NCBI GenBank assembly: GCA_973895155.1
Contig: OZ316896.1
Location: 7,511,278-7,575,277, forward strand
Source: Marsupella aquatica
Lineage: Eukaryota; Plantae; Marchantiophyta
Direction: 5' to 3'
Length of the DNA: 64,000 nucleotides
This document shows, in pieces, positions 2,673-41,143 of the stretch. Numbering within the stretch: position 1 is the first letter of the stretch; each line of letters begins with the position of its first letter. The translations under genes and the position numbers were made by a program. The notes under the pieces are model-generated. The model was not told the origin of the DNA. It made no database searches and was given only the letters and a program-made list of their open reading frames with translations.

Positions 2673-5511
2673 TTATAATCCATTCAAGTTCTGCCTCTCC
2701 AACACAAGACTGACTTCGCCCACAGTCAAAATTGGTTGGCTACAAAGAGTCGACTCCTCAACCTCAAGTTTGAAAACATTTATGTACACCCAGTATAGAT
2801 GTTTACAAGGCATGTACAACTTGCCACGCGAATGTCGTAGGAAGAAGTCCTCACAAGAGCAAGCAGGGAAGATACAGATTTGCACGAAGTACGTGCTTGG
2901 TGATCCAAGGTTCTCATGGGTTCGAATTCGAAATTGCTTTCCAAAAGCATTTCCAGTCCGAAGATTCCATTCCCCATCCAAAGTCATCTCTTCTTGTCGT
3001 GCAGACTCCATTCGCTTAGTGTGACCCACAGTGAGATTAGACCGAGGTCTTGAGTTCCTCCCATTCCGACTACCCAACCGGACATTTGGCTCCAAAAACC
3101 TTATTGTTTCTGGGAACACGTTCACATTTATCCTGAGGTCAAACGAAGATGGCGCAGATTGACTCGATCCTGTTGTTTGGGCTAAGACAAGTTCTTGCTC
3201 TTCGAGGAATGTGATTTCAGAAGGAGATAGGCTCGTACCCTTGAGAACAGGCAAAATTTCAGGAAGAGGAGGAATCTGATGAACACCACGACGTGGACGA
3301 CTCTTTATAACAGGTTTGGTTTGGGCAGAACCAAATCATTTCGGAGATTGGTTTGCCCCTAAAGAGACGATGGCCCTTCACAACAATTCCAACAACACCG
3401 TCAGACGAATGGAAGCCAACCTTCTTGATACGATTTCGACACTCATCGCGATCAGAACTCCCATTGAGTGTCCCATTACATTGGGGACCTGCTCCATACT
3501 TGGACGTCCGTCGCAGCTGCCACTGCCCCAGAGGGACATCCTTCTCTAGAACAATCGTGCGTGGAAGTGGATTCTGAAGTGAGGCTGGTGCACTGAGCGG
3601 AGGTTTTGTGGATCTTGTTGTACGGGTTGTTTGAGGGGTATTGTCCAGTGAATCAGTATCACCATCTGATGTGTCCATACCAGAGAGATTCACCAATCTT
3701 GTCAGAGGATCATTAGAATTTGAGGGAATGGAGGCAAAGTCAGTTCTGTTTAGGTTTTTCTTTTTCAAACCACGAGTATTTGGTGTGGTTAGGAGAACGG
3801 TGTCATGCCGATGGGAGTCTTGTGGAGAGACAATCCCAGTTGCATGTCCCTTTCTCTTCATTGACTTGGTCACAATATCTCCGTTAAGGGGAGTACTTCT
3901 TTCCAAATCGAAGTCCGCTGCGTTGGAAAGAAGCATGTTGGTCGCATCTTCAAATAACCTTGGCGAACCTGCTTGATCGGCGGAACGGAACGCCAATTCC
4001 CGTATAGTCGGTCCCTTTCCTCTGTTCAACCCTTTTCGATATGCACTGTATCCCGCAACTTGAGACAGGGCTCGGTTTTGGTCCACTTTGCATGCTTCAA
4101 AAAGACCAACTTTTTTCTTTGTAGCCCAAGCTTTCATAGACGCATGCCTTGATTCTGACCCTGTACAGTTGGGAATCAAGGCACCTTATTATGCGCTTTT
4201 GCTCTGCCATAGTCCGAATGCAATAATCAGTACTAGCACTGTATTATCAGCGCCCGGCGCTGACACCGACAAGTATTTATAACAAACATGAAATACAATT
4301 GCAAGTATGATTCTGGAACTTTATGGACATGTTGGACTCAAATACGAGCAAATCATACCAGCGCCTGGCGCTAATATAAAGTTGATGGAACTGTAAGACA
4401 AGAGAGGAGATGGATGTCATACCACTTGAATAAAATTGCCCCACTGGCGCCATCGAACAACCCACCAGGATATCCAGCTTTGTAGCATCATGAGCTTTCC
4501 AGGGACACAGTTTCCAGATTGCCACCAAACCACAATCTCTCGGGACACGCGATACGCTACCACAAATGTTGGAACATTTCTTAGTTTCTCCCAAAGTCTT
4601 TGATGTTCCGATTGACATTCTTCGAGTACTCCTTCCTTGGAATGCCGATGGAAAGATTGATAAAAGTGAAATGCATCAGAGCGCTCCCTCTCCGGGTCTG
4701 GGTGTCCACCGAAAAAAACATTCCGCACAGCATTCCATCCAGCTTGTGCATTGTCCGCCATAAACCCTTGGATGACAACCTCCTGTAATCCATTCTCCTT
4801 GCAAACCTCAATCATAACTCTCCAAGCCTTTTCGAAAGACTCAGTGTCTTCACCTTTCAACTTGCATGTGAAAATTGTACAAAGTGCACGGAAATTATGG
4901 TCGTAGACATGCGCGCTAAAAGTAAACCAATTGGTTGTGATACGCTGCATCACATCGAAACTGACCCAGGCTCCTTCGAGTCTTCCACCAGGTTGCATCT
5001 GTCTCAAAAGATCCACACCGGAACCGTGACCCTTCGTGGTCATTTTAAAGACGTGAGGCCTGTCGTCTTGACATCCCTGACCCGGGAGCAAATACCTCTG
5101 CAGAAACGACAGGTTAATCTTCTTCTGCATTTGCGAGAGAAAATCAAGTTCACCCCAACCCTTTTGGTCTATCCTAACGCTCCGACAAAGAGATGCAAAC
5201 TTCTAGGGAGTGGAAAGTACCATCAGAGACTTCCATATTTCAGTTTCTTCGATATCGACCATGTCGTCAACATGTTCGCAGAGAGCTTTCACTATGGACC
5301 CTGTAGCAGAATTCAAGATCCCAGCTGGTTTTGCCAGAGGATTGGCTTCATGATTTTTTTTAATTAAATCCTCAGCCATCTTCTCCGCACTCCTACAGAA
5401 GGTTTTTCTACCTGGATGGTTATGCTCACCTATATGAATTGCCAGGCGGGACATATGACTACATGTTTCCGCATCAAGTAATACTTGCGGGTACATATAG
5501 AAGGCCTTCAA
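2673..5511 (-). pseudogene. Mutator-like (MULE) transposase with C-terminal SWIM zinc finger; 5' part missing, spliced, disrupted
   Basis: IHIGEHNHP (WRKY/GCM-like tail), VSFDVM, FMADNAQAGWNAV...DAFHFYQS, GSESRHASMK (catalytic Glu region) and CSCEDF...PCKHLYWVY (SWIM). Splice donor at 4422; in-frame stops. Confidence 0.75.
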
Positions 5512-5512
5512 G

Positions 5513-8500
5513 TCATGAGATCAATGTGTCCCTTTTTTTCTCCTGCATATCTTCCTTCAAAATATCGGAATAATCCTCTCGACTTGGCTTGATTGTCTCC
5601 TCCAGGTCGGACTCCTCCAATACAAAGTGACCGGTAAAATCCTTGAAATGCTTTTCCCAATCAGGAACCCGATCTTGGGAGACGCCAAGGAAAAGAACCA
5701 TGTCCGCATCGCCTCTCATGTGTTGCGAAGGAGCATTAACCAAATAACTCCTAATGAACGAACCATATTCAAGGTGCGCATTATAGTTCTCCGAGAGATC
5801 TCGAACAGCTTCAATTATTCTTGCAAGAATAATACCAGGATGAACAAAAAAACAATTGTTACCAGATCATTTGTTGGTGTGACGCCGATGACATGGTCCT
5901 TATTCTTTAATCTGATTAACTAGGCTGCTATATGCAAGGAGTAGCTATTGATATTGCATAACAATTAGCAAGATGGCAAGAATAAGGGCAATCATGGCAT
6001 TAAGAGTAGGGGAATAAAAGCTATGTCACGGGTGGTCGGCGACCATATCTCTTTCAATATGTCACCAAATCTGGATCTGTAAAGAGTATTGGAAAGATCT
6101 GGTCAAGGCGAGTAAAATCGATATAAAACACTCGGGAAACGGAGGTGTATTAAGGGAGATACGACCTGATTAGTGTGACGGGTTAACTTGTGGCCGGAAT
6201 TAGCGGGTTCGGCTTCAGTTTCGGGTTAACCCAAAGCTCGGCCATGGCTTAGCTTAGGTAAGCACGGCTTCAGCTTAGCTCAAGTAAGCACAGCTTCAGC
6301 TTAGGCTTAGCCCGGGTTCGGATTAGATTGATCCCGGGTTAGAGTTAACTCGGGTTAGCCTAAACTCGGGCTCAAGTTAGCATAGGTAAGCTCGGGTTCG
6401 GTCTCAGCTTAGGCTAGGTTAGCGGATAGCGGATAGCGGGTAGCGGGTAGCGGCCTAACTCGAAACCACGGGTTAGCTCTACTTGGGTTAGATAGGATAG
6501 CTAGGTTAGCCGAACGCAGGTTAGCTATGTAACTCGGGTTAGCGCAGCAGTGAGTACCCCCTCTCGGTTGCGGGGGCATAACTCTCTGTGTATTTGACCA
6601 AATCGGCTATAATTGACCTCGTTGGAAAGAGGAGCTCAAGCCGCTTCCAACGCTGCTATCCACGCAGAAAATGGTTGAATAGAGAAATCGGGAGAGGAGG
6701 CGCAAGCTCGCAAAAACCATGGAGGAGGGCCAAATCCGAAGTACATAGCCAATTCGAGATAGAAATAAAGTTGCGAGTTAGGGTTCAGTAGTTAGAGATA
6801 GTGGCGGCTCTGTTAGGGTTGGGATGGGGCTCCAGCAACGTAGTATCCACCCATTTGGGCTCAGTATGAGAGTATATAGAGCAGCCCCCCGGTAGAGGCA
6901 GGGGGGCTTCAGTTGTGTGATCTCACTTAGACTGAGCAGCAGGGAGGAGCTCTGTGCAAGCAAGGCTGGACTTGGATGCTGCGTGTTGGGGAGAGCTTGG
7001 TTGTGCTATTACTCAGGGAGTAATCAGCCAAGCTTCACAGCTCCAACGGGTTGCTAGGTTTGCGAGCTGGATTGTGGCTCTTTCTAGTGGGCAGCACAAC
7101 TGGGTTCTTTTCCCCCGATACAGAGCCTTGGTGATAGGTGATGTATTGGTGATTGTAAACTATGGGGAGGATGTCAATTTGATTTGTGGTGAGCACATTA
7201 GGGAGGCTGAGATACTGATTGAGGGGCAGCAGAAGGAGCATTTATAGTTTGGTTTGGCAAGGCTAGGTGATCCATGGGGAGTCCCGGCCTTTGTCTGGTA
7301 GAGATCTGTACGTGCCCCCAAGAATGAAGTGCAGTGAAGGAGGTTGAGTTCAGGGTTGAGTTTGCAAGGCAAGTACGGGATTGGTTCGAGTCCAATCTGT
7401 CGTCGCAATCTGGAGTGAGCCGGGCTCAGGTTCAGGATTGAGCTTGCATGGCAAGCACGGGGCTTGCGGGGCAAGCATGTCGCAACCTGGAGGAGACAGC
7501 CTTCAGGCCTAGTGTTCAGATCAAGTGTTCTCAGTGAACTATTGTGCACATCTTTGAATCTAATTGAGTTTTCCTCTCAGGCCTCATTTCTCTCATGGAT
7601 GTGTGTGTGTGTGAGGCAATCTGAGTGTATGACGAGACTAGGAGCGCCACTGAGAGATGTACCGGGTGCATTGAAGTGGGTTGGGTGAGGGCTGTCACAG
7701 CTCTGATTGCTGAGAGTGGAATGGCAGAGTGGTGGGGCAATGGCTTAGAAGTCCCTAAGCCGGGAATCAGTCAGGTGTCACTGGTTTATGGGTACATTTC
7801 GGCGGCGGAATAGAAATATACCTATGACAGTAAGCATACGTATAGACATATGCGCACCGTAGCGCTAGGCCCTGTGTGTACGGGCCCGATATGAAGACCC
7901 CTTCTCACCAGAACTATCATGAGCACGGATCTGATTCCCAACCTTGGTTCCTAGGGATTGAGCTTGGGTGATGTGTGACAGAGTCTTGCTATGATAGTCT
8001 GGTGTTAAGGGCATAAATTGGTGTTTACCGGCCTTCACAACATCCCTTCGTGATCCTCAGGTACAAGGAGATGGTTTTGGCACCCATAGTGACGTTTTTG
8101 GTGTTAAGACCCATGTCAATCGCGTGACAGTTGGGATATTCACAACGATCTTCAAGAAGTTCAAGATTTTGGATTGCGTCCAAACCGGTTTTCCAGTATG
8201 GGTCAAATCAACAATCGCTAGAGATGCCAATATTGACTCCTTGCAGCTAGCCGAATCAAAAGGAGGATCAGCAGATGCGAGCAGATTTACAGTATAGAAA
8301 ACTCGGTAAGGATCCATCCTTGCGCGGAGATGGCCGCCAAACCTCTTTTGATGAATATTTCTCAACCTATGTTTCAATGGCTCCGGCATCTCTGCTTTTA
8401 ATGACACCTTCACAAGGCTCTTGAAATATCCAGTGTCCACCATTGCACAACAACGATCCAATTCCTCATTTGTGAAATTATATTGCTGAACTACATCACC

Positions 8501-13336: not shown

Positions 13337-13701
13337 GGCAAACCACCACCCGCCGCCAAACCAATCCGCATTTATGGAAACGACTGGTCACCACACTCCA
13401 CGCCGCCACAAAAAAGTACTACACGACAATCTGGTAGAGTTGAATGTCTGAAATTCTTGCACCCCCACTCACTATATAACGTGACAGACCACTTCATGCA
13501 AGTCATTTTTTGAGACCTGACTCATTCGTGCCTTCAGTCCGAGGTGGGACTGTCGTTAAAGCGTGCTCTATTGTTTCTGAAACTGCATCGGTACAGTTTC
13601 TCATACAGTTTTTCTCCTGTCATTTTCAATTTTGTTTTAGTGATTGTGTCAGTATGTGAATGCATGTGCTTGAGTCTTTCCCATTGGGATGTGGTTTAAC
13701 T

Positions 13702-14293
13702 GTATATTCAGTAGTAATCTAGTAATCTCTATTGAATTTTGGACTTTTGATTTGCTACACGAGTCTCGTGTTGTTCCCCTGGTCTATCTAAATACAACAT
13801 TCAATACAAAGTTCCTCTAATGAGAATACTCATTTCAGAATATCCATCTCTCTATAGAAGTTTTAAGAGCCTACGAGTGTGTATTCAGTAGTAATCTCTA
13901 TTGAATTTTGGACTTTTGATTGTCTACACGAGCCTCGTGTTGTTCCCCTCGTCTATGCAAATACAACGTTCAATAGGAAGTTCCTAAAAGAAGAATACTC
14001 ATTTCAAAATATCCATCTCTGTATAGAAGGTTTAAGAGCCTACTAGTTTGGATTCAGTCGTAAACTGTATTGAATATTGGACTTTGGATTGTCTACACGA
14101 GCCTCGTGTTGTTCCCCTCGTCTATCCAAATACAATATTCAATAGAACGTTCCTCTAAGAAGTATACTCATTTCAAAATATGCATCTTTGTATAGAAGGT
14201 TTAAGAGCCTACTAGTGTGGATTCAGTCGTAATCTCTATTGAATATTGGACTTTTGATTGTCTACACGAGTCTTGTGTTGTTCCCCTCGTCTA
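13702..14293. repeat. 169-bp tandem repeat, about 3.5 units, each carrying a CTACACGAG-N-CTCGTGT site
   Basis: Anchor AATCTCTATTGAA or a variant at 13724, 13893, 14062 and 14231. Confidence 0.92.
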
Positions 14294-14489
14294 AGATACA
14301 ATAGAATTTTCTATTTAATGAAAGAACCTTCAACTTTGTAGATGACTGTCTCCATTGCTTGTTTAAACTGGATTTGAATTTTCAGTTCTGTGATATTTGC
14401 TTAGATTAGAGTTAGACATTTTCACACGAGCCTCATGTAGGCTGTTTTAAAAGATGTTTTTGTTGCAAATATTTTTCCTTAGATCCAAA

Positions 14490-17400: not shown

Positions 17401-17799
17401 CCTCTAGAAGATATTAAAAAGAATACATTTGTTATTATTTGACCCCCCGATGAATTTGAAACCAGAATTCCGCAACGATTTTGGCTTGCAAAAGCAATCG
17501 ATTGTGTCGTAAGAGATCCCGACGATGCGCATGTTGGAGAGTTCCAAGTTGAATGGTGGCGCCCTCTTAATCGCAAGAGTTTGGCAACCGAATCAGAAAG
17601 ATATCAGGACTGCTTTAATTCAAAGCAAACGTGGGAAAGGGATCCCAATTACCTCATTCCCCCAGTCACAAATGATTGGATCCTAGCAACTTCAACCATC
17701 ACCAGATGGACATCAAAAGCAAAAGCAAAGGTAAAAGTTCCAGCGAGAGTTTTGGAAAGTGTGAAGGTTTACATTACAGAAACGATTGAAGAGAACTAA
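14490..17799 (+). pseudogene. DDE/DDD transposase of Sola-like/DUF7869 type with two N-terminal beta-barrel-like repeats and a C-terminal BAH/Tudor-like segment; stops and frameshifts
   Basis: CCSQSC, ICKEAFWNIHG, FAKCDLC, IHDKMDQAK, LHLQLDNSE and FLMVGHTHEDVDAFFSR motifs; C-terminal FWLAKA...FQVEWWRP. Confidence 0.75.
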
Positions 17800-18082
17800 A
17801 ATCCTTTCTCGACGCGAGACTCGCATGGAAGAAACTTGGTGATGCACGACACGTCCTAATTGTCGGGTTCAGGATTGTGGAAGAACAATAGGCGAGGTTG
17901 GAGCTGGTTTGTTCCAATCATTTTCCGCACGAGGCTCGTGTAGGCCGGATTACTTAGCTCGAGGATCATTTTTCAGAAAGTGAAAGGTGTGTACTTGTAC
18001 TCAATGTCATATTCACTGCAATGGCGCGCATATCGACCTTTGGCTCGTGTCTGTTGTGGCCACAATGATGGTTTGGTGCCGG

Positions 18083-20579
18083 TGTCACACGATTGACATG
18101 GGTCTTAACACCAAAAACGTCACTATGGGTGCCAAAATCATCTCCTTGTACCTAAGGATCACGAAGGGATGTTGTGAAGGCCGGTAAACACCAGTTTATG
18201 CCCTTAACACCAGACTATCATAGCAAGACTCCGTCACACATCACCCAAGCTTAATCCCTAAGAACCAAGGTTGGGAATCAGATCCTGTGCTCATGATAGT
18301 TCTGGTGAGAAGGGGTCTTCATATCGGGCCCGTACACACAGGGCCTAGCGCTACAGTGCGCATAGGTCTATACGTATGCTTACTGTCATAGGTATGTTTC
18401 TATTCCGCCGCCGGAATATATGTACCCATAGACCAATGACTCTGACTGATTCCCGGCTTAGGGACTTCTAAGCCATTGACCCACCACTCTGCCATTCCAC
18501 TCTCAACAATCAGAGCTATGACAGTCCTCACCCAGCCCGCTTCAATGCACCCTGTACACCTCTCAGTGGCGCTGCTAGTCCCATCATACACTCAGATTGC
18601 CTCACACACACACACATCCATGAGAGAAATGAGGCCTGAGAGGAAAACTCAATTAGATTCAAAGATGTGCACAATAGTTCACTGAGAACACTTGATCCGA
18701 ACACTAGGGCCGAAGGCTGTCTCCTCCAGATTGCGACATGCTTGCCCCGCAAGCCCCGTGCTTGCCATGCAAGCTCAATCCTGAACCTGAGCCCGGCTCA
18801 CTCCAGATTGCGATAGCAGATTGGACTCAAACCAATCTCGTACTTGCCTTGCAAACTCAATCCTGAACTCAACCTCCTTCACTGCACTTTATTCTTGGGG
18901 GCACATACATATCTCACACCTCCATTTCCGAATGTCAAGTTACGCATGCACAGTTGACTCGACTTCAAAGCTGGTACCAGGCCTAACGGCGATCTACCCC
19001 AGACTGCAATGAGGCCCGGCCTCACGCTTGCCCTGCAAGCTCATCCCTGGCCATAAATCCCTTAGTGCTCTCCACCAGACAAAGGCCGGGACTCCCCATG
19101 GATCACGTAGCCTTGCCAGACTGAACTGTAAATGCTCCTCCTGCTGCCCCTCAATCAGTGTCTCAGCCTCCCTAATGTGCTCACCGCAAAGCACATTGAA
19201 ATCCTCCCCACAGTTTACAATCACCAACACGTCACCTATCACCAAGGCTCTATATCGGGGGAAAAGAACCCAGTTGTGTTGCCTACTAGAAAGAGCCACA
19301 ATCTAGCTTGCAAACCTGGCCAACTATTGCTGTGAAGCGTGGCTGATTACTCCCTGAGTAATAGCACAACCAAGTTCTCCCAAACACACAGCTTGGACCA
19401 AGCCCAGCCTTCCTTGCACAGAGCTCCTCCCTGCTGCTCAATCCACGTGAGATCACACGACTGAAGTTCCCCCCCCTTGCCTCTACCGGGGGCTGCTCTA
19501 TATACTCTCATACTGAGCCCAAATGGGTGGATACTACGCTGCTGGAGCCCCATCCCAGCCCTAACAGAGCCGCCACTATCTCTAACTACTGAACCCTAAC
19601 TCGCAACTTTATTTCTATCTCGAATTGGCTATGTACTTCGGATTTGGCCCTCCTCCATGGTTTTTGCAAGCTTGCGCCTCCTCTCCCAATTTCTCTATTC
19701 AACCATTTGCTGCATGGATAGCAGCGTTGGAAGCGGCTTGAGCTCCTCTTTCCAATGAGGTCAATTATAGCCGGTTTGGCCAAATACATAGAAAGTTATG
19801 CCCCCGCAACCGAGAGGGGATACTCATTGCTACGCGCTAACCCGAGTTATATAGCTAACCCGAGTTCGGCTAGCCTAGCTATCCTATCTAACCTTAGAAG
19901 AGTTAACCCGTGGCCTCGGGCTAAGCCGCTATCCGTGTCCGTGTCCGCTATTCATGTCCGTTGTCCGTGTTAGTTGTCCATGTCTGTTGTCCGTGTTTGT
20001 TGTCCGTGTCCGTTATCCGTGTCCGCTATCTGTGCCTGCTGTCTACTATCCGTGTCCGTTGTTCGTGTTCGTTGTCTGCTATCCATTGTCTGTGTCCGTT
20101 GTCCGTTGTCCGCTATCCGTTGTCCCGGGTTTAGTCTAACCCCAATCTAAATCCGCTAGCCACTAGCCACTATCCGGTATCTGTATCCGCTAACCGTGTC
20201 CGCTAACCTCTATCCGTATCCGCTATCCGTGTCCGCTAACCTCTATCCGTATCCGCTATCCCGGGTTACACAAACCCGTCACACTAATAAGATCATATCT
20301 TTCCTAATACACCCCCGTTTTGAGAGTGTTTTATATCAATTTTACTCGTCTTGACCAGATCTTTCCAATGCTCTTTACAGATCCGGATTTGGTGACATAT
20401 TGAAAGAGATATGGTCGCCGACCACTCACGACATAGCTTTTATTTCCCTACTCTTAATGCCATGATTGCCCTTATGCTTGCCATCTTGCTAATTGTTATG
20501 CAATATCAATAGCTACTCCTTGCATCCAGCAGCCTAGTTAATCAGATTAAAGAATAAGGACCATGTCATCGGCATCACA
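18083..20579. mobile_element. Family-B solo-LTR-like element B2 (2497 bp)
   Basis: Ends TGTCACAC...GGCATCACA; exact TSD GCCGG (18078-18082 and 20580-20584); empty site visible in the neighbouring repeat unit near 20977. Confidence 0.95.
19926..20260. repeat. Degenerate TCCGTG/TCCGTTG/TCCGCTA 6-7-mer microsatellite inside B2
   Basis: Read directly; the B1 counterpart (TAGCGGA/TAGCGGG at about 6420-6453) is much shorter. Confidence 0.85.
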
Positions 20580-21247
20580 GCCGGATCACGAGATTTGGGT
20601 GGGATGAGCTCAATTTCCTTCATTATTGAGGTTAAATTGACAGGTGCTTTTGTATCATAATTGTGCTACATGAGGCTCGCGTAGGATGTCATAATCAACT
20701 TATGACTTGCAAATCTCGGATCTTATCACAGACACCCATATTCACACGGCATGTACTAATTTTCGGGTTGAGGACTGTGGGAGAACAATAAGCGAGGTTG
20801 GAGTTGGTTGGTTCCATTCACTTTCCGCACGAGGCTCATGTAGGCCGGACAGCTCTAGGATCATTATGACCTTTGGAAAGTGAAAGGTGTGTACTTGTAT
20901 TGAATGTCACTTTCACTGCAATGGCGCGCATGTCGACTTATGGCTCGGGTTCGTTGTGGCCACAATGATGGTGTGGTGCCGGGTCACGGGTTTTAGTATC
21001 ATAATTGTGCCATACGTGGCTCGTGTAGGATGTCATAATGAACTTATGACTTGCAAATCCCGGATCTCATCACACACACCTTTATTCGAGAGGCTTGTTT
21101 CTCTCCTTCAAGTTATGCTTTGTGATGAACTTCTGGCTCAGTCTCCAACATCTCTCTGATCAAATCTCCTTCTGATCAAATCTTCCTTTTCCAAATTGAG
21201 CATTTGACAACCATTTTGGATCGTGGTGATTTTCCTTAACTTTCATA

Positions 21248-21733: not shown

Positions 21734-23845
21734 ATGAGGCATTCTGGAGTCAGCTCTCGGGAGGTATTTTGGAGCTGTTTTTTGTGCGGATGCGATCATC
21801 GCGTAGGAATTTGTTAGTTGATCATGCATTTTGTTTAGGTGTGAACAGAAAGTGCTTGCGTTTTCCGCCTTAGTGTTTTTCGCTTGGGAGGCTTCGGCGT
21901 TTCTGAGCCTAGGAGGTTGATTTCAGGGATGCCTACGCCGACATCAACCAGAATTTTTGTTAGGCACATATGTTTCCTATGAATATACCAAGCTTATCTT
22001 TATGTGTACAAATGTGGAATGTTGTTTTGTTATGCAAATTGGATGTTGGTGCTCTTTGATTTGCAATCCCCTTGTTCTTTGGTCTTGGTCTTCGGCAGAG
22101 AGGAGCCTCTTTTCACACAACGCTTCTCCCTCTGCGTGTGGGATGGGAGGAGAGAGTATAGAGGAGCCTTTATTCTCACGATGCCTTCTCCTATTGCGTG
22201 TGTTGGTGGAGGAGAGTGGCTCACGCTCGATTGCAGATGAACGGCTTGTGCAAAGTCCTTCGTCTATCATACTCCTCCCTCACAACTAGACTTGTAGAAT
22301 TCCTGTATGCAGCATTCTAGGCATCGATAAAGCTTGCAAAAATGCTTGCTAAACTATATGCTCCTCTGGACTGTTACACTTGGTCCCGCCCACTTTTTAT
22401 GATCATATGTAGTCATCTCCAGTATCTTACTCTTCATTGAAGCTTTGAGTGCACCTTTTGTTCCGTCGTGCCCCTTAGGTGTCAGGGCGACTCTTGTTGT
22501 TGAGCTTTTACTCTTTACTCTTGTGCGACTCTCTGGCCCTCTTCTTTTTGGGGCTTTTAGGGGTATGTTGTGCATGTTCTTTGTTGTGTGTGAGGCTGCT
22601 TGTTCCCCCTTGTCGTGTGGCTTGTCGTGGCTGGTCTCTATCTATTAAAACACTCATTGGGATGAAGTTAACAACGTGTGAACCTAAGCCCCTTTTCTTA
22701 TGCTATGTCTCAAAAGTTTGTACCAAATCACAACTTGAAGTTTCCAAAATTGGTGCTGAAGTATCCGGAAGAAAATTGGAATTGTTCAGAACCCTTATTT
22801 AAAACTCAAAAAGTATGTTTTCAAATTTCTAAAAAGTAACATTCAATTTTCCAAAAGTACACTATCAAAATTCCAAGTGGACTATAATATTCCAGAGTTA
22901 GTGAAAGTATTGATAAATCCTGATGTGTACACTTGATGTTTCTAGACTTGGTGAAGTAAATCCGATGCCCGTAAATGCAGTTCAAAACTCTTAGACATCC
23001 CCTTGACACATTTTACATGAGTCAGTTCGTGTTTTTTGATGCTTAGTCTTATGGATATGAGTCAATCTTTGCACCAAATATCATTTGAAAGTCTTCAAAA
23101 TGCTTGTAGTTTCTGGTGGAGGGGTCTTACCCGTGACACGTTCCATATTAGCGCTCGGCGCTATCATTGGAATGCTCAAAATTATAGTTCTGATACCAAT
23201 GGAATTCTGAAAAATATTTGTGGATATGGATGAGTTTGTATTACGCTCTCGTGATGAGTAGCATCGAATCGGATGTTGTTTATGATAGCGCCAAGCGCTA
23301 ATAAACACTTATGGATTAATCGGTCAAAAAAGGGTCCATTTTGTCCATCAATGCTAGAATTCCATTGGAATTGTGTAAAAACACATATGTGGACGATTTG
23401 TTAGCGCTCGGCGCTATTGAAATTAGTAGTTTAAATTGGGTAATATCGAGTTGTTTTTGCTAGCGCTTGGCGCTATCAATAAGGCCAAACGATCAACGGT
23501 CATATTTTATCGGTAACATTGAGGATTGCTGGTCACGTGTAACATTGAGTTTGCTGGTCACATAAGACGGTTGCTGGTCCAATGGTAATCTTCCAAGTGT
23601 TCAGATCTATTGGTGTTACCGTTAAGCAACACTCTAATGTGCTAGAGACTCCATCTCTTAACCTTCTATGGGGACTTGGCGCTCGTGGGAGATATGTGAT
23701 TCTCTAGGAGCAGCCTGTTCAAACGTGACATTCTGTTCCTGAGTCTGTTACTCCGTACTGGCCTTAGGGGCTCTGGGAGAGTTGTACGATACTATTCGAC
23801 GTTCTACTCAACGCCATCGCCATCTCTTAGTGGGGTAATACAAGG

Positions 23846-26800
23846 ATGGGAGATAGTCATGCCGGTCATTTTGAGTCCTCACAGTCCTCTTTTTCAGGTT
23901 CTGTGTACACCCGTCGTGTGACTCGGTCCGTTGCGTCTCATTCACATTCAGACATTGGCTCAACTCTTCCAACCACGCGATCAAGAAGGGGGAGAATGGA
24001 CATGACTGAGGAAGTTGCGTGGGTTGATTTTGGTGTTGCTGGACTTTCAATGGACGAGTACATATCCAAGCATGTCTTGTCCTTTGGCAAAGATTTTAGA
24101 GGATTGGAGACTCAGGAGCCTCCACAAATTCCTCTGTGTCGATTGATTCATATGGAAGTGGTGCGGATGTTGCAGAAGCAGAGCGCCTCCATTGACAAAT
24201 TGAAGAAGTCATTCCGGATTTCTGGATACAATTCACGCATGGGCATGCCATTTTACGTACAGCCAACGAATGCGGATGGGGTTCCACAGATTTGCACTAA
24301 TGAGATTAGAGCCTCTTGGGACCCAATCTTGGTTGCCGTGAATGACAAGTTCGAGGAAGAGTGTGACGCTGTTCCTGATTTCAGAGTTTTGAAGGACAAG
24401 ATGTTTTGTGTCTTTGATGGAAATCACCGTTTGTATTCATGGTCGATTGTGACAGTAGAGCATCCGGACAACATTAAGTACCACCCTCGTGTGACTTGCA
24501 TTGTTTTCAATGGAGATAAAGGTTCCCTCGTGGAGCTTGAGGCTGCCATGCACGCTGTCAACCAGTAAGTCATTCCTCCGGATAACCTCATTTAATATGA
24601 CGTACTAGTTCAAGATGTACTTTTGATGTGATATTATCTTTGGTGTTTTACTAGCGCCCGACGCTACTAATTTCCATTTAAATTTTGACGTAGGTTGGGA
24701 CAAGCTATGGTTGAGCCATCTTGGATTCTTGATGCTGACAGAATCTCTCGTCTTTTATCCCGCGACCTAGAGCACTACAAACCCCTCATTGATGCTACAA
24801 GTTATGCAAAGTTTGAAGCCATTCAAAAGAAGACTCGCAAGGGTTCTTGGTATACACACAAGATGCCACAAGACGCGCTCATCTACATTTTGTATGAGAA
24901 CAAGACTAAATCTTACACAAACCAGTTCAAAGTGGACATGGATTTTGCAGCAGCCCAGGGGACTCCTTGGTCTGAAGAGGAGACGCAGAAGAGGCATGAA
25001 GGTATGATGAAAGAAGCGACAAAAGATTGGGCTATCAAAGTAACAAAGATCACTCCATTGCTACACCCTGATTTTGGTGACTACTTGGCCACATGTGCGG
25101 ACATGTTTCCCGTGACAAAGAAGAACAAAAGAGAAAAGAAACCCAATACAGTTGTTTGCACTATGGATCGCGCTCGCCTGTTTACTGCAGTGACTTATCT
25201 AGATCCAAAGCCAAGGTGTACACTTCTTGTCGCCCATTGTACTCCAGAGATTCGGAAACAGTTCTTTCATCCGACTAGTGTGAACGACAATCCAGTAAAA
25301 CAGTGGTGCCATACCTAGCATATCTAGAATTCAGTGGAGGAAATTGCTACTGGATTGATCCTCACCTCGCTCGAGCAGATTTTGGATCGCATGCCAGATG
25401 ATCGTCTAGTCAAGTCTGGTTGTGAGTCCGTGGATTTTCTCATGAAGTCCATTATTGAAGAATTCAAATCATTTGGAGACCTTGTCAAGGCTAAACTTTT
25501 CAACATAATGTGGCCATCAAAGTATGCAGACAAGGAGGACTACACTGAGCGGAACCAGAAACGAGCCAAACGATACGTTTACCATTTCTACATGTGGATG
25601 GAGTTGCGATCTCCTGAGGTTTTGTGGGCTTACCCTGGTGCATTTCAAAAGTGGGTGATGATCAAAGATGGTGACCACCTTGTTGATCTATATTCGATGT
25701 ACCCAGCTGAGGGAAAGTTTCCACCTCGTGCCTTGTCAGAGTGGGAGAGACTCCACTGCCCATGGTATCTAGACACTGACAAATGGGATCTGCCTTTTGA
25801 CGAGGTGGAGAAAGACGCTTTCATGAAGTTGCAAAAGTCACAAATCCCGGCAAGGTATGTATCGGAGATGAAGCAAGGTCTTGCAATTGAAGTGGACGCT
25901 TTGACAACTAAGCTGCAAAAGAAATGCGAGACAGTCGTCGTGCATGTTGATCGGAGCCGAAAGCCAAGAGTGAAGGCCAAGAATGAATCTGCAGCTCCCA
26001 GTGAATTAACTCGATCTCTTAAAAAACATAAGTATGCCTCTTAGGATTCAGTAAGGGATTCCCGCTCTTGTTCGTATGACATATTTTTCCCCAATTGATA
26101 CTAGCGTCGAGCGCTATTATGAGAACTAGTTCCGTTGAGTAACGTATCTCTGTCTTTCAGGGGGAAGGAAGTTGGATGCCACCACTGATGTAAAAGATGA
26201 CGCTACTCCTCAGGCCTCTAAAGCTAACACTGGTGCGGAAAATACACCAGATCCGGGAACCCTTGGGGAGAGTGGAAAGGCAGTGGTTCCAGTGGACGCG
26301 ACAAGTATGAAGAAGAAGAAAAAGAGAGGAACACTTGATGATAGGTTCGGATCTTCGTCCCGAGATTCAGTTGCATCTACTGGATTGCAAAGAGATGTGA
26401 GGAATTTCAAACAAAAGTGTACTCGACATTGTTTTGTGGAGTTGAGTGTTACAGAATGTTTTGATTCCCTGTTTAACAAGGGAGAAAAGCCGGACTGGGT
26501 TTCTAATATTGAAGGTTGGGGGAAAGAGCTGGTGAAGTCTGGGGATTGAGCAAAAGGGGTTGTCCAAGGGGGAAAAGAAAGAGCTTTTGGAGTTGATGCT
26601 GGTTTCATATATCTTTCGACTGGGTTGAAACCAACACTTGTGGATAGGAAGGTTCCTAAATGGAACCTACAAGATTATACAATTCCAAGTGCCTTCTTCA
26701 GAACAATGGATCCTTTCCTAGCAGATGATGGATTGCTAGCGATTTTGCACAGGGGCGACTACGACCAAGTTTCTGAAGTCATTGCAGCTTGTCAAGATTC

Positions 26801-28002
26801 ACAGAAATTTCAGTGTATCTCGACACACAATGTTGTGATGGGCACTCCAATGTACAGGCCTCGCTCAGATATGCAGGTATGTATAATGGCGCTTGGCGCT
26901 ATTCCAGAGTTTCTATTTTGTGTCCTCCTTTGGACATTTGACGGTGACGCTAGCGCCAGGCGCTAGTGTGGCATATCCTCTTCATGCAAGGTTTCTATAT
27001 TCTTGACATTGTATCTGATGTTTATTCTGAACAAAACGTTATTCGATGTGCAGATTTTTATGCTCACCCTCAATGTTTTTGGGCGTGTTTTGTCCAAAGG
27101 TAGGGTCCCGAAGGATCCCAAATTTTTGGCCTCTTTCACATACAGAGGATCCTTTGATAACCAATCTCATTGGTTTTCCCGTGCCAAAAAATGATCCTCT
27201 ACCGGAGCTTGCGTTTGCTGGGAATTCAAGGCTGCCTGTGGTTTTCATGTAGTCAATTTTAGGATTAATTACCCTCCCTGGGGATATTGTCATGGACTGG
27301 ACTGTTGGGGCCGGAAGTACATTTGTTGTTGGAGATCATTGTGGGAGGTTTGTAGTCGGGATTGAAAATCGTAAAGAGTTTCTTGACACTGCCACAAAAG
27401 TTTTCTTTGGACTTCTCGAGAACAAAGAGGCCTCCACATCCATGCCTCCGCACCGGCAGGTGGGGAGTAAGAAGCAGGACAGACTCAGTGTCCAAAGATG
27501 ATGGTGCCTCCAAGAAAGTGGTGAACCTCGGGTCTTCTGAATCTGAGGATAATGAAGAGTCTTCTGAGTAATGATCTTCAGCTTCCCTGTCTTTATTTTC
27601 TTTTTAAGGGTGACGTTAGTGTCTCCAAAATTCCACCATTTTCCCGGATCCAACTAAAGATATCGGATTCAACTTTCCAGGTCTGAGTGGAATCTTTGGA
27701 AGTGCTTTCAACTACGGAGGAAAGTCGCTAGGAATGCAATAGAAACCCCGGAGAAGCCATTTGTCTTGCCTTCCTATGCGGAAAAGGCAGCTCGAAAAGC
27801 AAATTTTGTGAGAATGCTGACTTGGGAAAGCAAAGGCCTGAGGCTCAAAAGGGGCTCGGATAGGAAGTTTATGAGGAACCGCTATGTCGATGACATCGTC
27901 CCGAACGAGTATGTAGACGACAAAGCTGAGTCTACTGATAGATCACAAAGTAGTGAAGAAGAATCAGAACTAGATACGACTGATTCAGAATCTGATGGCT
28001 AG
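23846..28002 (+). pseudogene. ParB-2: five-exon gene, N-terminal ParB/Srx-like domain fused to a C-terminal beta-class N6-adenine/N4-cytosine DNA methyltransferase-like domain
   Basis: IPLCRL...VVRML...IDKLKKSF...FCVFDGNHRL (ParB/Srx GxHR). FFRTMDPFLADDGLLAIL and TLPGDIVMDWTVGAGSTF...GRFVVGIE resemble the SAM-binding motif I region of N6_N4_Mtase. Introns 24565..24693, 26051..26160, 26877..27053 and about 27569..27680. Premature stops at 25316, 26042 and 26547. Confidence 0.75.
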
Positions 28003-28566
28003 CCAGACTTTAAAACAAATGAATAGTTTTTGGATAGAGATATAGGCTATTTTACAAAATAGCGCTTGGCGCTATTGTGAACACACGTAATATTGATGGG
28101 TGTTTATAAAGTGAGACGGACTGTCCAGATTGCTTTTTGACTATACTTTCCTCTATGAAGAGGACAATCTTAACTTGGGATGTATTATAATTCAGTGATA
28201 TTAGAATATGACTGCCCCCTTCCCAATCTTTCATCAATTGGCATCTGATGGTCTTTAATTGATCTCTATTTTTTAGGTCTGTTATTGAGGTCTGTATACT
28301 AGCACTAGGCGCTAGTATACATTTGTTTTTGGGCATACTTTTGCAGATAGATGTTTTGAATGAGGTTTTGGGTATTCTAGACTGTTTCAAGACTGTAGTG
28401 CTGGGCGCTAGTATTGCGATGTGTTTCAAAATAACGGATTTTAGAGGTTTCAATTTCATTTTGCGAGAGATGTAGGATTAGGGAAGATTTTTTTGGTGCA
28501 GACATTTGCTGTTATGAGCTTTACTGTTTGCTGTTTGTTGTTTGCTGTCACCGTGAAAAGCCTCGT

Positions 28567-31500
28567 ACGTAACCAGAGACACTCTCGACTGGCTTCATAT
28601 AACGCTATTATCTCAAAGTGATTAGAGGATGTAGTAGTGAGTGATTGTTTACTACTCTTCCAAGAAATTGTTGTGTGTCCAATAAGGAAAACGTAGCCCG
28701 TTTGTGACTTCATGTCTGCAGGATCTAAAAGATAGCCTGCATCTGCATAGCCGTATAATGTAATGTCGAGTTTTGCAGGAAAGAATAAACCAAGGTTGAT
28801 GGTGCCAAAGAGATAGCAAAGTATTCGTTTAAGGCCATTCCAATGTTGTATAGTGGGTTGGGAGCTATAACGGGCTAAAAGATGTACTACAAATGCAATA
28901 TCTAGCCTTGTTTGGCTAGCTAAGAACATTAAAGCGCCTATTAAAGATAGGTAACGCTTATCGGAGCCCAATAGGGGCTCATGTTCTTCTCTTTTCCGGA
29001 AAATATCTTTTGTTTGATCCAAGGAGCATAGGTCCATTGGAGACTTAACGGACTTGGTCATATGCATATGAAACTGTTTAAGTACTTTCCGTGTATACAT
29101 AGATTGATGAAGGAGAATTCCTTGAGGTAAGTGCTCGAACTGTAATCCAAGGCAGAATGTAGTCTTGCCAAGATCCCTCATTTTGAATACACGTTGTAGG
29201 AGCTTAAAGGTGTCAAGCATTATTTTACTTGTTCCAAATAAGTTTAAGTCATCGACGTAGATCGCTACGATGATTACTTATGTTCCTTCTCTCTTTATGA
29301 ATATACATGGTGCAATTTCCGCATTCTTGAAACCCATAGATTTCATTTCCGCCTGGAAACGTTGATACCATGTGCGACCGCTCTGTTTCAAGCCATACAG
29401 TGAACGTAGGACTTGTATGGCAAATCGAAGACAAGCTGTAAGAGTCTCCTTGTCGGATCTTGGCCCTGAAGGGGACTTCTAGGATATAGATTTGGAAATG
29501 GAATGCAGTATCTACAAGTTTTTGTGGTTGAAAGAAGCATTGGCTTGTTCTTGCTGTAAGGAATTCCCCTCACTGTGATACTGTACTCAAGTGATTAGCT
29601 CCGGTGGAGCTTCCGTGTATATTTGCTTATCCAGTTCTCCATACAGGTAACCCGTCACTATATCTAGCTGATGCATTGATAACTTATAGTGAATTGCAAA
29701 TGCTATGAGATACCTGTATGTAATGATATCCATCACGGGAGAATATGTCAAGTCATAATCCCTTCCTGGGATAGTGAATCCTCTGGCCACTAGCCGGGCC
29801 TTATATCTCACTATTTTTCCTCTTGCATTGCGTTTCTTAACAAAAATCCACTTGTATCCAGTGAGGTGTGTGTCAGGTGGAGCACGTGGAATTGGTCCGA
29901 ATACTTTACGTGAGATCAAAGAATCTAGTTCAGAATTAATAGCGGATTCCCACTTTTCCCAATCAGTGTGTTTTTGAGCCTCCAATATTGTCTTGGGATC
30001 AAGTAATTCATTAAGTATTTCTTGGGATACTTGAAATGCAAATGTTTGATCAAGAAGTGTATTCATTCGATCCCATATGTGACCGGTAGTGTTGTAGTTA
30101 ATTGAAATCTCTTCTTTTTCGAGACATAGGGCTTGGGTAGATAACGCAGTTATTGATGGAGGCTGTACAGTCTGGGAGATGTCTCGAGGGCGTCTGTGTC
30201 TTGGTTGCTTATCTGCTGCTCCAGGTGGCCTTCCATGTTTTACTCTTGGCGCAGTGTGTGTGGCAGGTTTGTTAAAATCCTGGATGCAGGATGGAGCGTT
30301 AACTGCTGGTACATGTGATCTGGTTACTTTTGCAGCATCTGCAAAAGAGTCTGGGAGTTGGTCCATCATCCGGGTGAGATGCAGTGTTCGCTGGACTTCA
30401 GAGTCGGCCTGTTGTGTTCTAGGATTGTTCCAGAATCCTGTATGGATATGCCATTGTAAGTCGTGAGGTAATTTCTGCTCCTATTTCTGTGTTGTCAATT
30501 TTGGGAATATTGCTTCATAAAAATGGCAGTCTGCAAAGCGTGCTTTAAAGACGTCTGCTGTGCTCGGTTCCAGATATCTGATAATAGCTGTAGAGTCAAA
30601 ACCCACATAAATGCCCGTCTGTCTCTAGGGACCCATCTTAGTCCTTTTAGGTCCCAAAATTGGTATCAATACTTGGCAGCCAAACGTCCTCAAGTGGGAA
30701 ACGTCTGGTATGTTCCCAAAAGCCAAATGATGTGGTGTGTTAGAATTAAAAGCTGACGGGCGGTATCTGAGTAGTGAGGTAGCATGGAGTACAACATGGC
30801 CCCATGCTGACGCCGGGAGATTGGTCTTCATAAGCAGTGGCCGAGCTATTGTTTGCACTCTCTTAATTAATGATTCGGCGATTCCATTTTGAAAGTGAAC
30901 GTGCGGGACAGGATACTGGACGTCGATACTTGCTGAGGTACAGAAATCATCAAAGGTTTGTGAAGTAAATTCACCTGCATTGTCCACTCGAAGGATTTTG
31001 ATCGGATTATCGGGGAATTCCGCTTTTAATTTCAGTATGTGCGCAAGTATTTCGGGGAATACTAGATTTTGAGTAGACAAGAGAGAATTTGTGACCATTT
31101 GGATGAGGCACAAATAAGAGCTAAAAAGAATCAAAAAGGTCCACTTGGGGGTTCTATGGGACCACAAACGTCGGCATGTATTCTCTCAAGAAATTTTGGT
31201 ATGGCTGTTTCTATAGTTGGGGGTGCAGGTCTGGTCACCATTTTTCCTTTGGAGCATGCCAAACAGGGAGATATCAAAGCTCTGGGGTGGACTGTTTTTG
31301 GTATTCCTTGAGAATTCTTTATGATTCTATAAAACATGGTTGTGCCTGGGTGGCCCAACCTGTTATGCCATAATTTTGTAATTACGTTATTCTTGAGTTC
31401 TGTATGAAAAACATGGGTTTTAGTGGTGTAAAAACCCAATGGCAATGCAGGTAGGGTCTCTATTATTTTGGTACCCATGGGTGTCTTTTCTACAATGTGG

Positions 31501-31852
31501 AGGACTTCTTGAGAGTCTTTGGTATCTGTCTGTATATGTAGGTGGTTTTCCCGTATATCTTTGAAACTCAAAAGATTTCTTGTAGCTTAGGAGCATAGAT
31601 AGCCGACTTGATATGTATTTGGGTCCCTTTAGGTAAAATTAGTGTAGCTGGGCCGTGCCCTTCCTCCAGTTGGTACTGTCCCATGATAGTAGTGAGTCTC
31701 TTCCGGGAGGGTGTAATGTATTTAAAATATGAAGGATCCTGTAGGATGGTATGTGATGTAGCACTGTCTACAATACAACAACTGAAGGCATTTAAAGTCG
31801 TATGAGGTTCAGGGACCAAGTGTACCTCAAGTAAGACTGTAGGGGTTTCCAT
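28567..31852 (-). pseudogene. pol: Copia pol (PR-INT-RT-partial RNase H), frameshifted
   Basis: Consecutive ORF fragments 31568..31852, 31131..31571, 30625..31167, 29587..30369 and 28456..29220 carry canonical motifs. Confidence 0.92.
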
Positions 31853-32193
31853 AAATGTCCCATGTGTTTCATATGTTTATGTATTGAGACTCTTTTTATA
31901 TAACTCCACTAGATGTGCAGGAGCTCTGCACATGCGTTGAGTATGCCCTTTAGTGCCACATCGATAACAAATACTAGGAGGATTGGTATACTTATCTCTA
32001 TTTACTGTAGTCCTCTTATGTTGGTTATTTGTTTGACCTCTCTGCCAGGTATTTCTGGAGCCTCCAAAACTGGATCGGCCCCTACCTCGTCCACGAAAAG
32101 ATTGAAATCTTCCTCCCCGTTGGGAACTTTGGCCTCTGCCTCTGAAATTTCCTCTACCACGTGATGAAGTTGTAGCAATTTGCCGTGGAGCAT

Positions 32194-39499: not shown

Positions 39500-40755
39500 T
39501 ACAGAGGGAGTTCTATCCATGGATGCTGTCATTGCCAAATACGCAATGTCATTTGGAGTAGATTTCCGCGGGGAGAAGAAAGAGTCGTCGGGTATCCCTC
39601 TTTGCCGCCTTGTTCACATGGAAGTCGTTCGGACTTTCTAGAAAAATAGTGCATCTATCGACAAGCTCAAGAATTCATTTTGCAGCTCTGGGTACAACTC
39701 TTCAATTGGGATACGGTTTTATGTGTCCAGCCTGCGGATTCAGAAGGAGTTGTTCAATTGTGCACGCCTGAAATTTGGAAGACCTGGGATGCTGTTTGGG
39801 TTGCTCATAACGACTTGTTTGAAGCAGAATGTGCTTTTGATCCGTACTTCCACATTTTGAAGGATAAGATGCTTTGTGTCTTTGATGGGAATCATCGACT
39901 CTACACGTGGACTCAAGTAACAAATGAGAACCCAGACAATATCAAGTACCATCTGCGTGTTCAATGCACTATCTTTAAGGGAGATTGAGGTTCTCTAGTT
40001 GAGCTTGAAGCGGCTATGCACACGGTGAACTAGTAACTCATCCTTCAGTTGCATAAACGGTATTAAATTTGATGGATTGCTTGATTTTTGCAAGGTTGGT
40101 TAGCGCCTGGCGCTGCTAACTTAAGGTATCTCTCTCAGGTGAGGGCAAGCAGTAGTGGAACCGTCATGGATTCTCGACGCCAATAGAATCAATCGGATTC
40201 TAACACATGACCTGGAGGCCTACAAGCCTATCATCGACCCTGCCAGCTTCAAGCAATTTTAGACTATTTGCGCAAAGACAAGAAAGGGGTCGTGGTATCC
40301 CAAGCACATGCCATTGGAAGCATTGGTTTACATCTTGTGCGAAAACAAGATTAAGTCGTATTCACTTCAATTTAAGCTTGACTTGGCTGCTGCTACAACT
40401 CAAGGTTGCCCGTGGTCATCTAAAGAGATCGGTAAGCGGTATGCTGCCATGATGAAGGAGGCAACAAAGGAGTGGAGCATAAAGACATCCAAGATTACCC
40501 CCTGATAAGCCCAGAGTGGCAATTTTCTGTCAACTTGTGCAAAAATGTACATACTTACGGAGAGGAACAAACGGGAAAAGAAACCAAACTTTGTAGTTTG
40601 TACGATGGACCGCGTGCGTCTGTTCACTGTTGTCTCTTATTTGGATCCAAAGCTGCGATGTACCCTTCTTGTCGCTCACTGTACACCCGAGCTCAGAAAA
40701 CAATTTTTCCACCCCCCGAGTGTTAATGATGACCCTGTTAAACAGTGGTGTCGAT
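39500..40755 (+). pseudogene. Second, diverged fragment of the ParB-2 gene, cut at the CACTA terminus
   Basis: IPLCRLVHMEVVR, CVFDGNHRLY and KNKREKKPN..VCTMDR..LF...SVND.PVKQWC match 23846..25318; same intron position (40033..40138). Confidence 0.9.
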
Positions 40756-41143
40756 CACTAGAAGAAAACAGGGCCCTTTATGACCAATCACCTAATGATG
40801 GAAATGAATCAATGACCAAAATTTCTAATGACACAAAAAGAATGACGGGAGAATGACTGTCCACAATGACCAATAGACTGAAATGACAAAATGATAACTT
40901 TTGCGTCATTTTGTATAATGTCTGAAATGACAATTGCGACCTAAATGACACAATTTTCCCAAAATGGTCAATTTAGACACATGTCCTAAATGACCCAATA
41001 AATAACAACAATGATAAATCAATGTTTAGCAACATTATACTCACTCTAGACAATAAATGAAATGACCAAAAATCTATTTGGGTCATTTTGGACAGCGGTG
41101 ATAAATGACAAAAATGTATTTCCGTCATTTTAATCAACGATGT

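What the first reader, a model, noticed from the sequence alone, without database searches (positions are those of the whole stretch)
23846..28002. Intron-containing ParB + beta-class amino-methyltransferase-like fusion in a plant-like TE
A clear DGNHR ParB/Srx motif and a C-terminal PGDIVMDWTVGAGST...GRFVVGIE segment mirror prokaryotic/phage ParB-MTase fusions, but here in a five-exon eukaryotic gene. The expected catalytic DPPY position appears degenerate (GFIYLSTG), so it may be a pseudo-enzyme or reader. Established: bacterial-derived 4mC methyltransferases operate in Marchantia and bdelloid rotifers. Inference: TE-borne capture of a prokaryotic modification module.
Basis: partly seen in the sequence, partly recalled or inferred. 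Interest (0 to 1): 0.82.

Follow-up and report, generated by a model that had tools for sequence, protein, structure and literature searches.

The report
Plant transposon's ParB–pseudo-methylase helper gene
A broken copy of a multicopy land-plant gene joins a bacterial-style ParB domain to a DNA-methylase fold that lacks the usual catalytic motif, and a 15-letter palindrome lies in its introns and flanks, so the protein likely lets its jumping gene recognise and shield its own DNA, as has been proposed for similar genes in seaweeds.

Summary
23846-28002 is a spliced gene with a ParB/Srx-fold N-terminus and a beta-class amino-methyltransferase C-terminus. This copy is dead: four stops and a frameshift; related copies lack four of these five lesions.

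It belongs to a multicopy family with fused members in the liverwort Riccia sorocarpa and in Adiantum ferns. None of 39 relatives has DPPY; most have D-[LM]-P-[TS]-G. The window's lineage has Y-[LI]-P-T-G, so the Ser in 'YLSTG' is a minority variant while loss of the Asp is lineage-wide.

It lies in the three defined introns and both flanks, never in exons, is kept in a paralogue whose synonymous sites are saturated, and is shared with a Mutator-like transposase gene. A neighbouring DUF7869 block and a distant relative carry different palindromes.

The design is already described in algal transposons (Ectocarpus Sola1, Bostrychia Plavaka). I found no report for land plants. Element ends were not found, a direct prokaryotic capture is not shown, and function is untested.

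The parts
23846..24564 (+). Exon 1: disordered N-terminus, then ParB/Srx-fold domain (DGNHR at 24416-24430)
24565..24693 (+). Intron 1, holding one palindrome (24652-24666)
   Evidence: same donor place in L001-L004 and in the paralogue
24694..26031 (+). Exon 2: conserved middle region of unknown fold (candidate DNA-recognition part; not modelled); stops at 25316 and 25325; 3' end uncertain (26031 or 26050)
   Evidence: aligned with Riccia P0153; 24% identity over exons 1-2, E 1e-43
26032..26160 (+). Intron 2 (limits approximate), holding one palindrome (26102-26116)
26161..26876 (+). Exon 3: charged linker and first half of the beta-class MTase fold; motif IV position reads YLSTG (26610-26624); stop at 26547
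26877..27053 (+). Intron 3, holding two palindromes (26887, 26951)
27054..27459 (+). Exon 4: second half of the MTase fold with motif I (DWTVGAG) and the GIE strand; frameshift at 27123, stop at 27250
27658..28002 (+). Probable last coding stretch (acidic tail); link to exon 4 unresolved
   Evidence: weak match to P0160, E 0.21
23149..23475 (.). Four perfect TAGCGCYNRGCGCTA palindromes upstream (23149, 23286, 23402, 23461)
28060..28410 (.). Three palindromes downstream (28060, 28300, 28396)
2673..5520 (-). Broken Mutator-like transposase gene (RNase H-like core, SWIM-like finger read by eye); likely partner, with the same palindrome in its intron (4359; 4248 with 2 mismatches) and downstream (2556)
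39513..40757 (+). Truncated paralogue (exon 1, intron 1, part of exon 2), 66-67% amino-acid identity, palindrome kept in intron 1 (40101)

Best explanation
This is a dead copy of a multicopy ParB-fold plus methyltransferase-fold gene that is likely the accessory gene of a giant Mutator-like DNA transposon, and its protein would bind the element's own palindrome TAGCGCYNRGCGCTA and likely act as a non-catalytic shield against host silencing. Shown: both folds; the fusion in liverwort and fern relatives; loss of DPPY across the family and of the Asp in this lineage; retention of the SAM-binding GxG; purifying selection between paralogues; the palindrome confined to introns and flanks and shared with a Mutator-like transposase gene. 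Inferred: that both genes belong to one element split by a nested DUF7869 block; that the protein (probably its unmodelled middle region) recognises the palindrome; that the ParB domain uses a nucleotide to load or spread from these sites; that the MTase fold binds DNA or SAM without methylating; and that the result is anti-silencing, like VANC of Arabidopsis VANDAL elements.
For: Folds. Fusion: 15 of 219 proteins held hit both profiles. Multicopy: two copies in this window, 1197 and 917 contigs laid in runs X1 and X3, dozens of Riccia paralogues. Motif IV: 0 of 39 relatives have DPPY, 38 of 39 start with D, 1 of 39 has an aromatic fourth residue. Lineage Tyr: no variant listed at its first two bases in four runs while the third base varies, and it is present in P0194 at 58% identity. 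Palindrome: 15 matches vs 0.03 expected, largest of 100 shuffles 1; 11 of 11 around the gene lie outside exons; kept about 40 nt before the intron-1 acceptor in a paralogue with pS 0.79-0.96 and pN about 0.2. Each system has its own palindrome: a second one has 16 matches confined to 8991-21012 around another ParB-like ORF and a DUF7869 gene; L002 has a third, twice in intron 1, reached by 0 of 1000 shuffles, with a 2-mismatch version in L003 intron 1. Precedent: VANC21 binds a motif in introns and intergenic parts of its own element (PMC5735166, passages).
Against: No binding, expression or methylation data. Element ends (TIR, TSD) were not found, and the transposase gene lies 18 kb away. Two type-A palindromes (12115, 12137) sit inside the supposed nested block, which does not fit a clean nesting. 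The Mutator call rests on an Atlas lead; Pfam gave no MULE hit. L001 (intron cut short) and L004 show no intronic palindrome. The palindrome patterns were read from this window, so the shuffle and exon tests are post hoc. 35 of the 39 motif-IV sequences come from one species. The MTase model is of a Riccia relative and has mean pLDDT 56. VANC proteins were not compared, so the anti-silencing role is an analogy.
Confidence: 0.5

Rival explanations
1. The family is an active amino-methyltransferase with a non-canonical site. ParB targets it to the palindromes and it writes 4mC or 6mA on its own element, which would block host 5mC; only the Tyr lineage seen here may be dead.
For: Asp kept in 38 of 39 relatives, one fern copy has D-V-P-F, and GxG is kept in 27 of 29 motif-I sequences by the printed list. 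The fold matches M1.HpyAVI, CcrM and M.BceJIV. The Ectocarpus authors propose self-modification. The palindrome holds AGCGC/GCGCT.
Against: The base-stacking aromatic of [DNSH]PP[YFW] (PMC4738411 Box 1) is missing in 38 of 39, the first Pro in 39 of 39, and the window's lineage also lacks the Asp.
Confidence: 0.2
2. The palindromes are binding sites for the Mutator transposase, used for synapsis or transcriptional control, and the ParB-MTase protein has some other helper role.
For: The palindrome also lies in the transposase gene's intron and downstream of it. A 2026 preprint reports sequence-specific activation by AtMu1 transposase (10.64898/2026.08.24.746577; start of abstract only).
Against: 11 of 15 sites lie in or around the ParB-MTase gene, with sites in each defined intron. 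The site is kept in a deeply diverged paralogue's intron. A distant ParB relative carries its own intronic palindrome. Bostrychia's inverted-repeat arrays adjoin the ParB gene.
Confidence: 0.2
3. The gene belongs with the DUF7869 transposase at 14508-17799, as in the Ectocarpus Sola1 element, and not with the Mutator-like gene.
For: It is the nearer transposase-like gene, about 6 kb away. That DUF7869 marks Sola-type transposases is recalled, not tested here.
Against: The DUF7869 block has its own palindrome, absent from the ParB-MTase gene, and its own divergent ParB-like ORF. It lies on the same strand as this gene, whereas the Ectocarpus gene is on the opposite strand.
Confidence: 0.07
4. 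It is a host gene recently acquired from a prokaryote or phage, like Marchantia DN4MT1.
For: Both folds have bacterial best matches in the PDB; introns are conserved.
Against: High copy number, broken copies and nested-repeat context; no prokaryotic or viral relative found; no TSPPY.
Confidence: 0.03

Closest known systems
Accessory gene of Sola1-1_Ec32, Ectocarpus (PMC12477816; passages read, figures and supplements not seen)
   Same: ParB-like domain fused to an N4C/N6A-type MTase domain in a protein of about 1100 aa, carried by a giant DNA transposon, opposite strand to the transposase, proposed to bind and modify its own element.
   Different: Here a land plant and likely a Mutator-like element; motif IV is degenerate (the passages read do not give the Ectocarpus motif); a defined palindrome is mapped to introns. 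Sequence relationship not tested.
PAG2/PAG3 of Bostrychia Plavaka elements, with homologues in Chondrus giant Mutators (bioRxiv 10.1101/2025.02.11.637652; section 8 read whole)
   Same: ParB-like accessory protein with inverted-repeat arrays beside its gene; an N6A-MTase accessory gene; cassette moves between transposon superfamilies.
   Different: There ParB is fused to a 2OG oxygenase and the MTase to SET, in separate genes, and the repeats form tandem arrays. Here ParB and the MTase fold are one protein and the sites are single copies in introns and flanks.
VANC anti-silencing proteins of Arabidopsis VANDAL elements (PMC5735166; passages read)
   Same: Accessory protein that binds a family-specific motif concentrated in introns, intergenic and terminal non-coding parts of its own element. 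That VANDALs are Mutator-like is recalled.
   Different: VANC motifs are short, asymmetric and arrayed in one orientation; here a 15-bp palindrome. No sequence relationship was tested, and VANC function is proven while this is not.
Bacterial beta-class amino-MTases (M1.HpyAVI/DpnA, CcrM, M.BceJIV, M.MboIIA) and phage ParB-MTase loci
   Same: Motif IV before motif I; same fold (Foldseek E 3.5e-7); weak PHROG hits to phage DNA MTases over motif I only.
   Different: No DPPY; 14-18% identity in the top structural matches; about 600 residues between the two domains; introns.
Marchantia DN4MT1 and bdelloid N4CMT (bioRxiv 10.1101/2021.02.12.428880 and PMC8885841; passages read)
   Same: Eukaryotic beta-class amino-MTase of bacterial type.
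   Different: They are active host 4mC enzymes; the Marchantia pair has TSPPY and no extra domain; 'ParB' does not occur in either text.

Membership tests
Beta-class amino-MTase (PF01555) | Permuted class I SAM fold, motif IV before motif I | tested here: met
   model of relative P0154 matches M1.HpyAVI at E 3.5e-7
Beta-class amino-MTase (PF01555) | Motif I glycine loop and acidic end of the next strand | tested here: met
   DWTVGAG and GIE align with the PDB motif; the Phe of FxGxG is replaced
Beta-class amino-MTase (PF01555) | Catalytic [DNSH]PP[YFW] | tested here: not met
   YLST here, Y[LI]PT in the lineage; 0 of 39 relatives canonical
Beta-class amino-MTase (PF01555) | Methyl transfer to N4C or N6A | not testable with these tools
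   needs an assay
ParB/Srx superfamily | ParB/Srx fold with nucleotide-binding GxxR-type motif | tested here: met
   (Z 7.8, only superfamily members listed); DGNHR in 109 of 162 aligned relatives; Atlas ParB_N cluster 0.93 with Pfam on 11% of members
True ParB/Noc (parS-loading CTP clamp) | HTH after the N-domain and C-terminal dimerisation domain | not tested
   middle region was not modelled
True ParB/Noc (parS-loading CTP clamp) | CTP binding and spreading from a palindromic site | not testable with these tools
   palindromes present; binding unknown
Mutator-like element (MULE) | MULE-type DDE transposase in the same element | tested here: inconclusive
   Atlas hits 0.91-0.94, one cluster 85% PF10551; no Pfam hit; linkage rests on the shared palindrome
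Mutator-like element (MULE) | Element ends with 9-11 bp target duplication, with or without TIRs (feature recalled) | tested here: inconclusive
   none found in self-comparisons; both flanks abut retrotransposon pieces; no genome held
Algal-type ParB-MTase transposon accessory genes | ParB + amino-MTase fusion inside a giant DNA transposon | tested here: inconclusive
   fusion met; element limits not shown; algal sequences not available for comparison
VANC-type anti-silencing system | Element-specific motif enriched in non-coding parts | tested here: met
VANC-type anti-silencing system | Protein binds the motif and hypomethylates the element | not testable with these tools
   needs transgenic or biochemical test

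The most novel reading that the evidence does not exclude
Seed-free land plants carry a large family of transposon-encoded, parS-like self-recognition systems: each element family pairs a ParB-fold protein with its own palindrome planted in introns, loads and spreads from it like a bacterial sliding clamp, and uses a repurposed methyltransferase fold to keep the whole element free of host methylation. Two such systems with different palindromes sit nested in this one window.
Probability: 0.25. Interest if true: 0.85.

Novelty: new variant of a known kind. Interest (0 to 1): 0.52.

Why it matters
According to the Bostrychia preprint, VANDAL/VANC is the only transposon system known to bind and modify its own sequence. 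The algal ParB accessory genes were proposed to do so but remain untested. This locus supplies a precise candidate site (TAGCGCYNRGCGCTA), shows that it is kept in introns over long divergence and differs between families, and points to liverwort and fern members, some full-length, that can be tested in Marchantia or Riccia. If true, it is a second, independent anti-silencing system in plants and a source of paired protein-site modules for epigenome work. It would also show whether a ParB clamp operates on eukaryotic chromatin.

Tried and rejected
No whole genome is held, so element ends and copy number could not be mapped. A word-index search with exon 1 among longer proteins found 0 of 394 candidates. 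Exon 1 has no Pfam or PDB sequence hit, and the profile gave one unrelated hit at E 0.057. Viral contigs: 0 of 66 candidate stretches; prokaryote genomes: 0 of 5; these are narrow pattern scans. No RNA holder was listed, which says nothing on expression. The homodimer job on the ParB domain gave 'no answer'.

I first read 5878-8129 and 18083-20579 as long TIRs of a nested element. Rejected: they are two solo LTRs in opposite orientation, each with its own 5-bp target duplication.

The second ParB-like gene (about 5513-11536, minus) looked by eye as if it ended in an MTase-like region. Profile tests did not support this, and its ParB-like motif scores only E 0.11 against the family profile. A possible first Mutator exon at 22270-22641 (minus) has no Pfam hit. 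No tree was built. The wide VIA search and an NCBIfam scan were not obtained.

Literature: nine searches found no land-plant report of this fusion. The Riccia sorocarpa genome paper has 0 occurrences of 'ParB' or 'methyltransferase', and the 2026 preprint on retrotransposon adenine MTases has 0 of 'ParB'. Subscription papers, Repbase, Ectocarpus reference 50 (doi 10.1016/B978-0-12-387685-0.00002-0; not read) and the supplements of the two algal papers were not seen and may hold such a report.
Full report
Observation. The gene runs 23846-28002 on the + strand with introns at 24565-24693, about 26032-26160 and 26877-27053. The 3' part after 27459 is unresolved. This copy carries stops at 25316, 25325, 26547 and 27250 and an extra base at 27123. 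Contigs from other runs lack the 26547 stop at full depth in 3 of 4 runs (the fourth has no cover there) and lack the extra base in 8, 7, 7 and 1 contigs; one loose end reads Trp at both exon-2 stops. The 27250 stop was not among the rows shown. The window copy is therefore a decayed member of a family with open frames.

The two domains. The C-terminal piece hits PF01555 (E 1.6e-5, below the curated cut-off) and beta-class MTases in the PDB. A profile of nine pieces hits CcrM and DpnA at about E 5e-6. A model of the Riccia relative P0154 (mean pLDDT 56) has M1.HpyAVI, CcrM and M.BceJIV as top Foldseek matches (E 3.5e-7 to 1e-5). Exon 1 has no sequence-level annotation, but its model (pLDDT 91) aligns to Noc, ParB, KorB, PadC, Srx and SerK, and to nothing else among the 31 entries listed (best Z 7.8). 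The Z is middling and Foldseek's best E was 0.015, so the call rests on the consistency of the list, the DGNHR motif and the Atlas result (a eukaryotic cluster, a fungal DUF3723 cluster, a bacterial cluster, a ParB_N cluster).

The family. Exon 1 found 194 proteins at E 0.001 or better among 1.84 billion. Of 30 representatives looked up, 12 are Riccia sorocarpa, 5 are Adiantum and 13 are unnamed; none is a named prokaryote. Riccia P0153 (1207 aa) aligns with exons 1-2 (E 1e-43) and exon 4 (E 5e-7). Of 219 proteins held, 15 hit both the ParB and the MTase profile. The organism is unknown; a seed-free land plant is the inference from these relatives. Many variant contigs in organisms A and B and a second copy at 39513-40757 show it is multicopy. 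Between the two window copies, synonymous sites are saturated (pS 0.79-0.96) while pN is about 0.2 over 373 codons, so the protein was under purifying selection for a long time.

The catalytic site. The alignment places the window's YLSTG on DLPTG of Riccia. Among 39 relatives with this column, 35 of them Riccia, none has DPPY: 38 begin with D and one (Adiantum nelumboides, DVPFG) has an aromatic fourth residue. In close copies the Ser codon mostly reads Pro, while the Tyr shows only a synonymous change; P0194, 58% identical, also has YLPTG. By the mechanism described in PMC4738411 (Box 1), both the polar first residue and the stacking aromatic are needed, so this lineage is most likely a pseudo-enzyme and the wider family is doubtful. 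Motif I keeps its glycines.

The palindrome. TAGCGCYNRGCGCTA occurs 15 times with at most one mismatch, against 0.03 expected (pattern taken from the window, so post hoc). Eleven lie around the gene: four upstream, one in intron 1, one in intron 2, two in intron 3, three downstream, none in exons that make up 65% of that stretch (P about 1e-5). One lies in intron 1 of the paralogue at the same distance from the acceptor although the rest of the intron has diverged. Two lie in and beside a broken Mutator-like transposase gene at 2673-5520 (minus), with a third at two mismatches, and one (plus a 2-mismatch neighbour) at 12115-12151. Between the two genes lies a block with a DUF7869 gene, a divergent ORF with a ParB-like 'ISGQHS' motif, two solo LTRs and a different palindrome, ACACGAS-N-STCGTGT, with 16 matches confined to 8991-21012 against a shuffle mean of 0.57. 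A distant relative, L002, has a third palindrome twice in intron 1, and L003 has a 2-mismatch version; L001 and L004 show none. The simplest reading is a giant Mutator-like element with transposase and ParB-MTase gene head-to-head, split by a nested second element. Ends and target duplications were not found, and the type-A sites near 12137 do not fit cleanly.

Mechanism. The likely function is self-recognition: the protein binds palindromes planted in the non-coding parts of its own element. This mirrors parS for ParB (established knowledge) and the intron and intergenic motifs bound by VANC21 (PMC5735166). The most likely outcome is protection from host methylation without catalysis. Binding, nucleotide use, spreading and anti-silencing are all inferred. 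Rivals are an active enzyme with an unusual site, transposase-bound palindromes, partnership with the DUF7869 gene, and a host gene.

Known context. A ParB + N4C/N6A MTase accessory gene is described in Ectocarpus Sola1-1, and ParB-2OG and MTase-SET accessory genes with inverted-repeat arrays in red-algal Plavaka and Mutator elements. The design is therefore known as a proposal. New here, as far as nine library searches show: a land-plant family, family-wide loss of the catalytic motif, and intron-planted, family-specific palindromes. No prokaryotic or viral relative was found, so the origin is old and the route unknown; inheritance through eukaryotic transposons is at least as likely as direct capture. 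Earlier notes of this scan describe the same design in other genomes; they are unchecked leads, were seen after my analysis, and lower the novelty somewhat.

Verdict: real, a new variant of a known kind, interest 0.52.

Noticed in passing
window 5513-21100: A second probable giant DNA transposon: DUF7869 gene (14508-17799, +, PF25273 E 2e-28), a divergent long gene with a ParB-like 'ISGQHS' motif (9050-11536, -), and its own palindrome ACACGAS-N-STCGTGT (16 matches, 8991-21012). By eye the gene may end in an MTase-like region with a DPPF word near 8260, but profile tests found nothing.
   Followed up: partly
window 44861-48018: A third palindrome, GGGATAC-N3-GTATCCC, 11 matches against a shuffle mean of 0.17, within 178-bp repeats beside a 578-bp tandem array (41500-44700). 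No ParB-family gene found nearby with the family profile.
   Followed up: partly
window 5878-8129 and 18083-20579: Two solo LTRs of one family in opposite orientation, TG..CA ends, 5-bp target duplications GTTGG and GCCGG; a third partial copy starts at 59261.
   Followed up: yes
window 1983-2055, 5857, 12032-12237: Repeated TGTTACCAG motif, 7 copies, all on one strand, near type-A palindromes; may mark subterminal sequence of the Mutator-like element or a small derivative at about 11990-12250.
   Followed up: no
window 28456-36843 (minus), with related pieces at 1-1953 and 52357-56456: Copia-type retrotransposon remains (gag knuckle, integrase, RVT_2) preceded by two long coiled-coil-like ORFs of unknown function that recur three times in the window.
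   Followed up: no
window 61862-62506 (minus): Weak Pfam Transposase_24 (En/Spm) hit, E 1.5e-4.
   Followed up: no
window 22270-22641 (minus): Cys/His-containing ORF piece that could be the first exon of the Mutator-like transposase, facing away from the ParB-MTase gene; no Pfam support.
   Followed up: partly
L002:881-907 and 977-1001; L003:744-762: A different intronic palindrome (ATCTCGGC-N7-GCCGAGAT) in intron 1 of distant ParB-family genes.
   Followed up: yes
Riccia sorocarpa proteins P0151-P0193: Many family members are auto-named 'Trimethylguanosine synthase' in UniRef, which looks like a mis-annotation of this transposon-type MTase fold.
   Followed up: no
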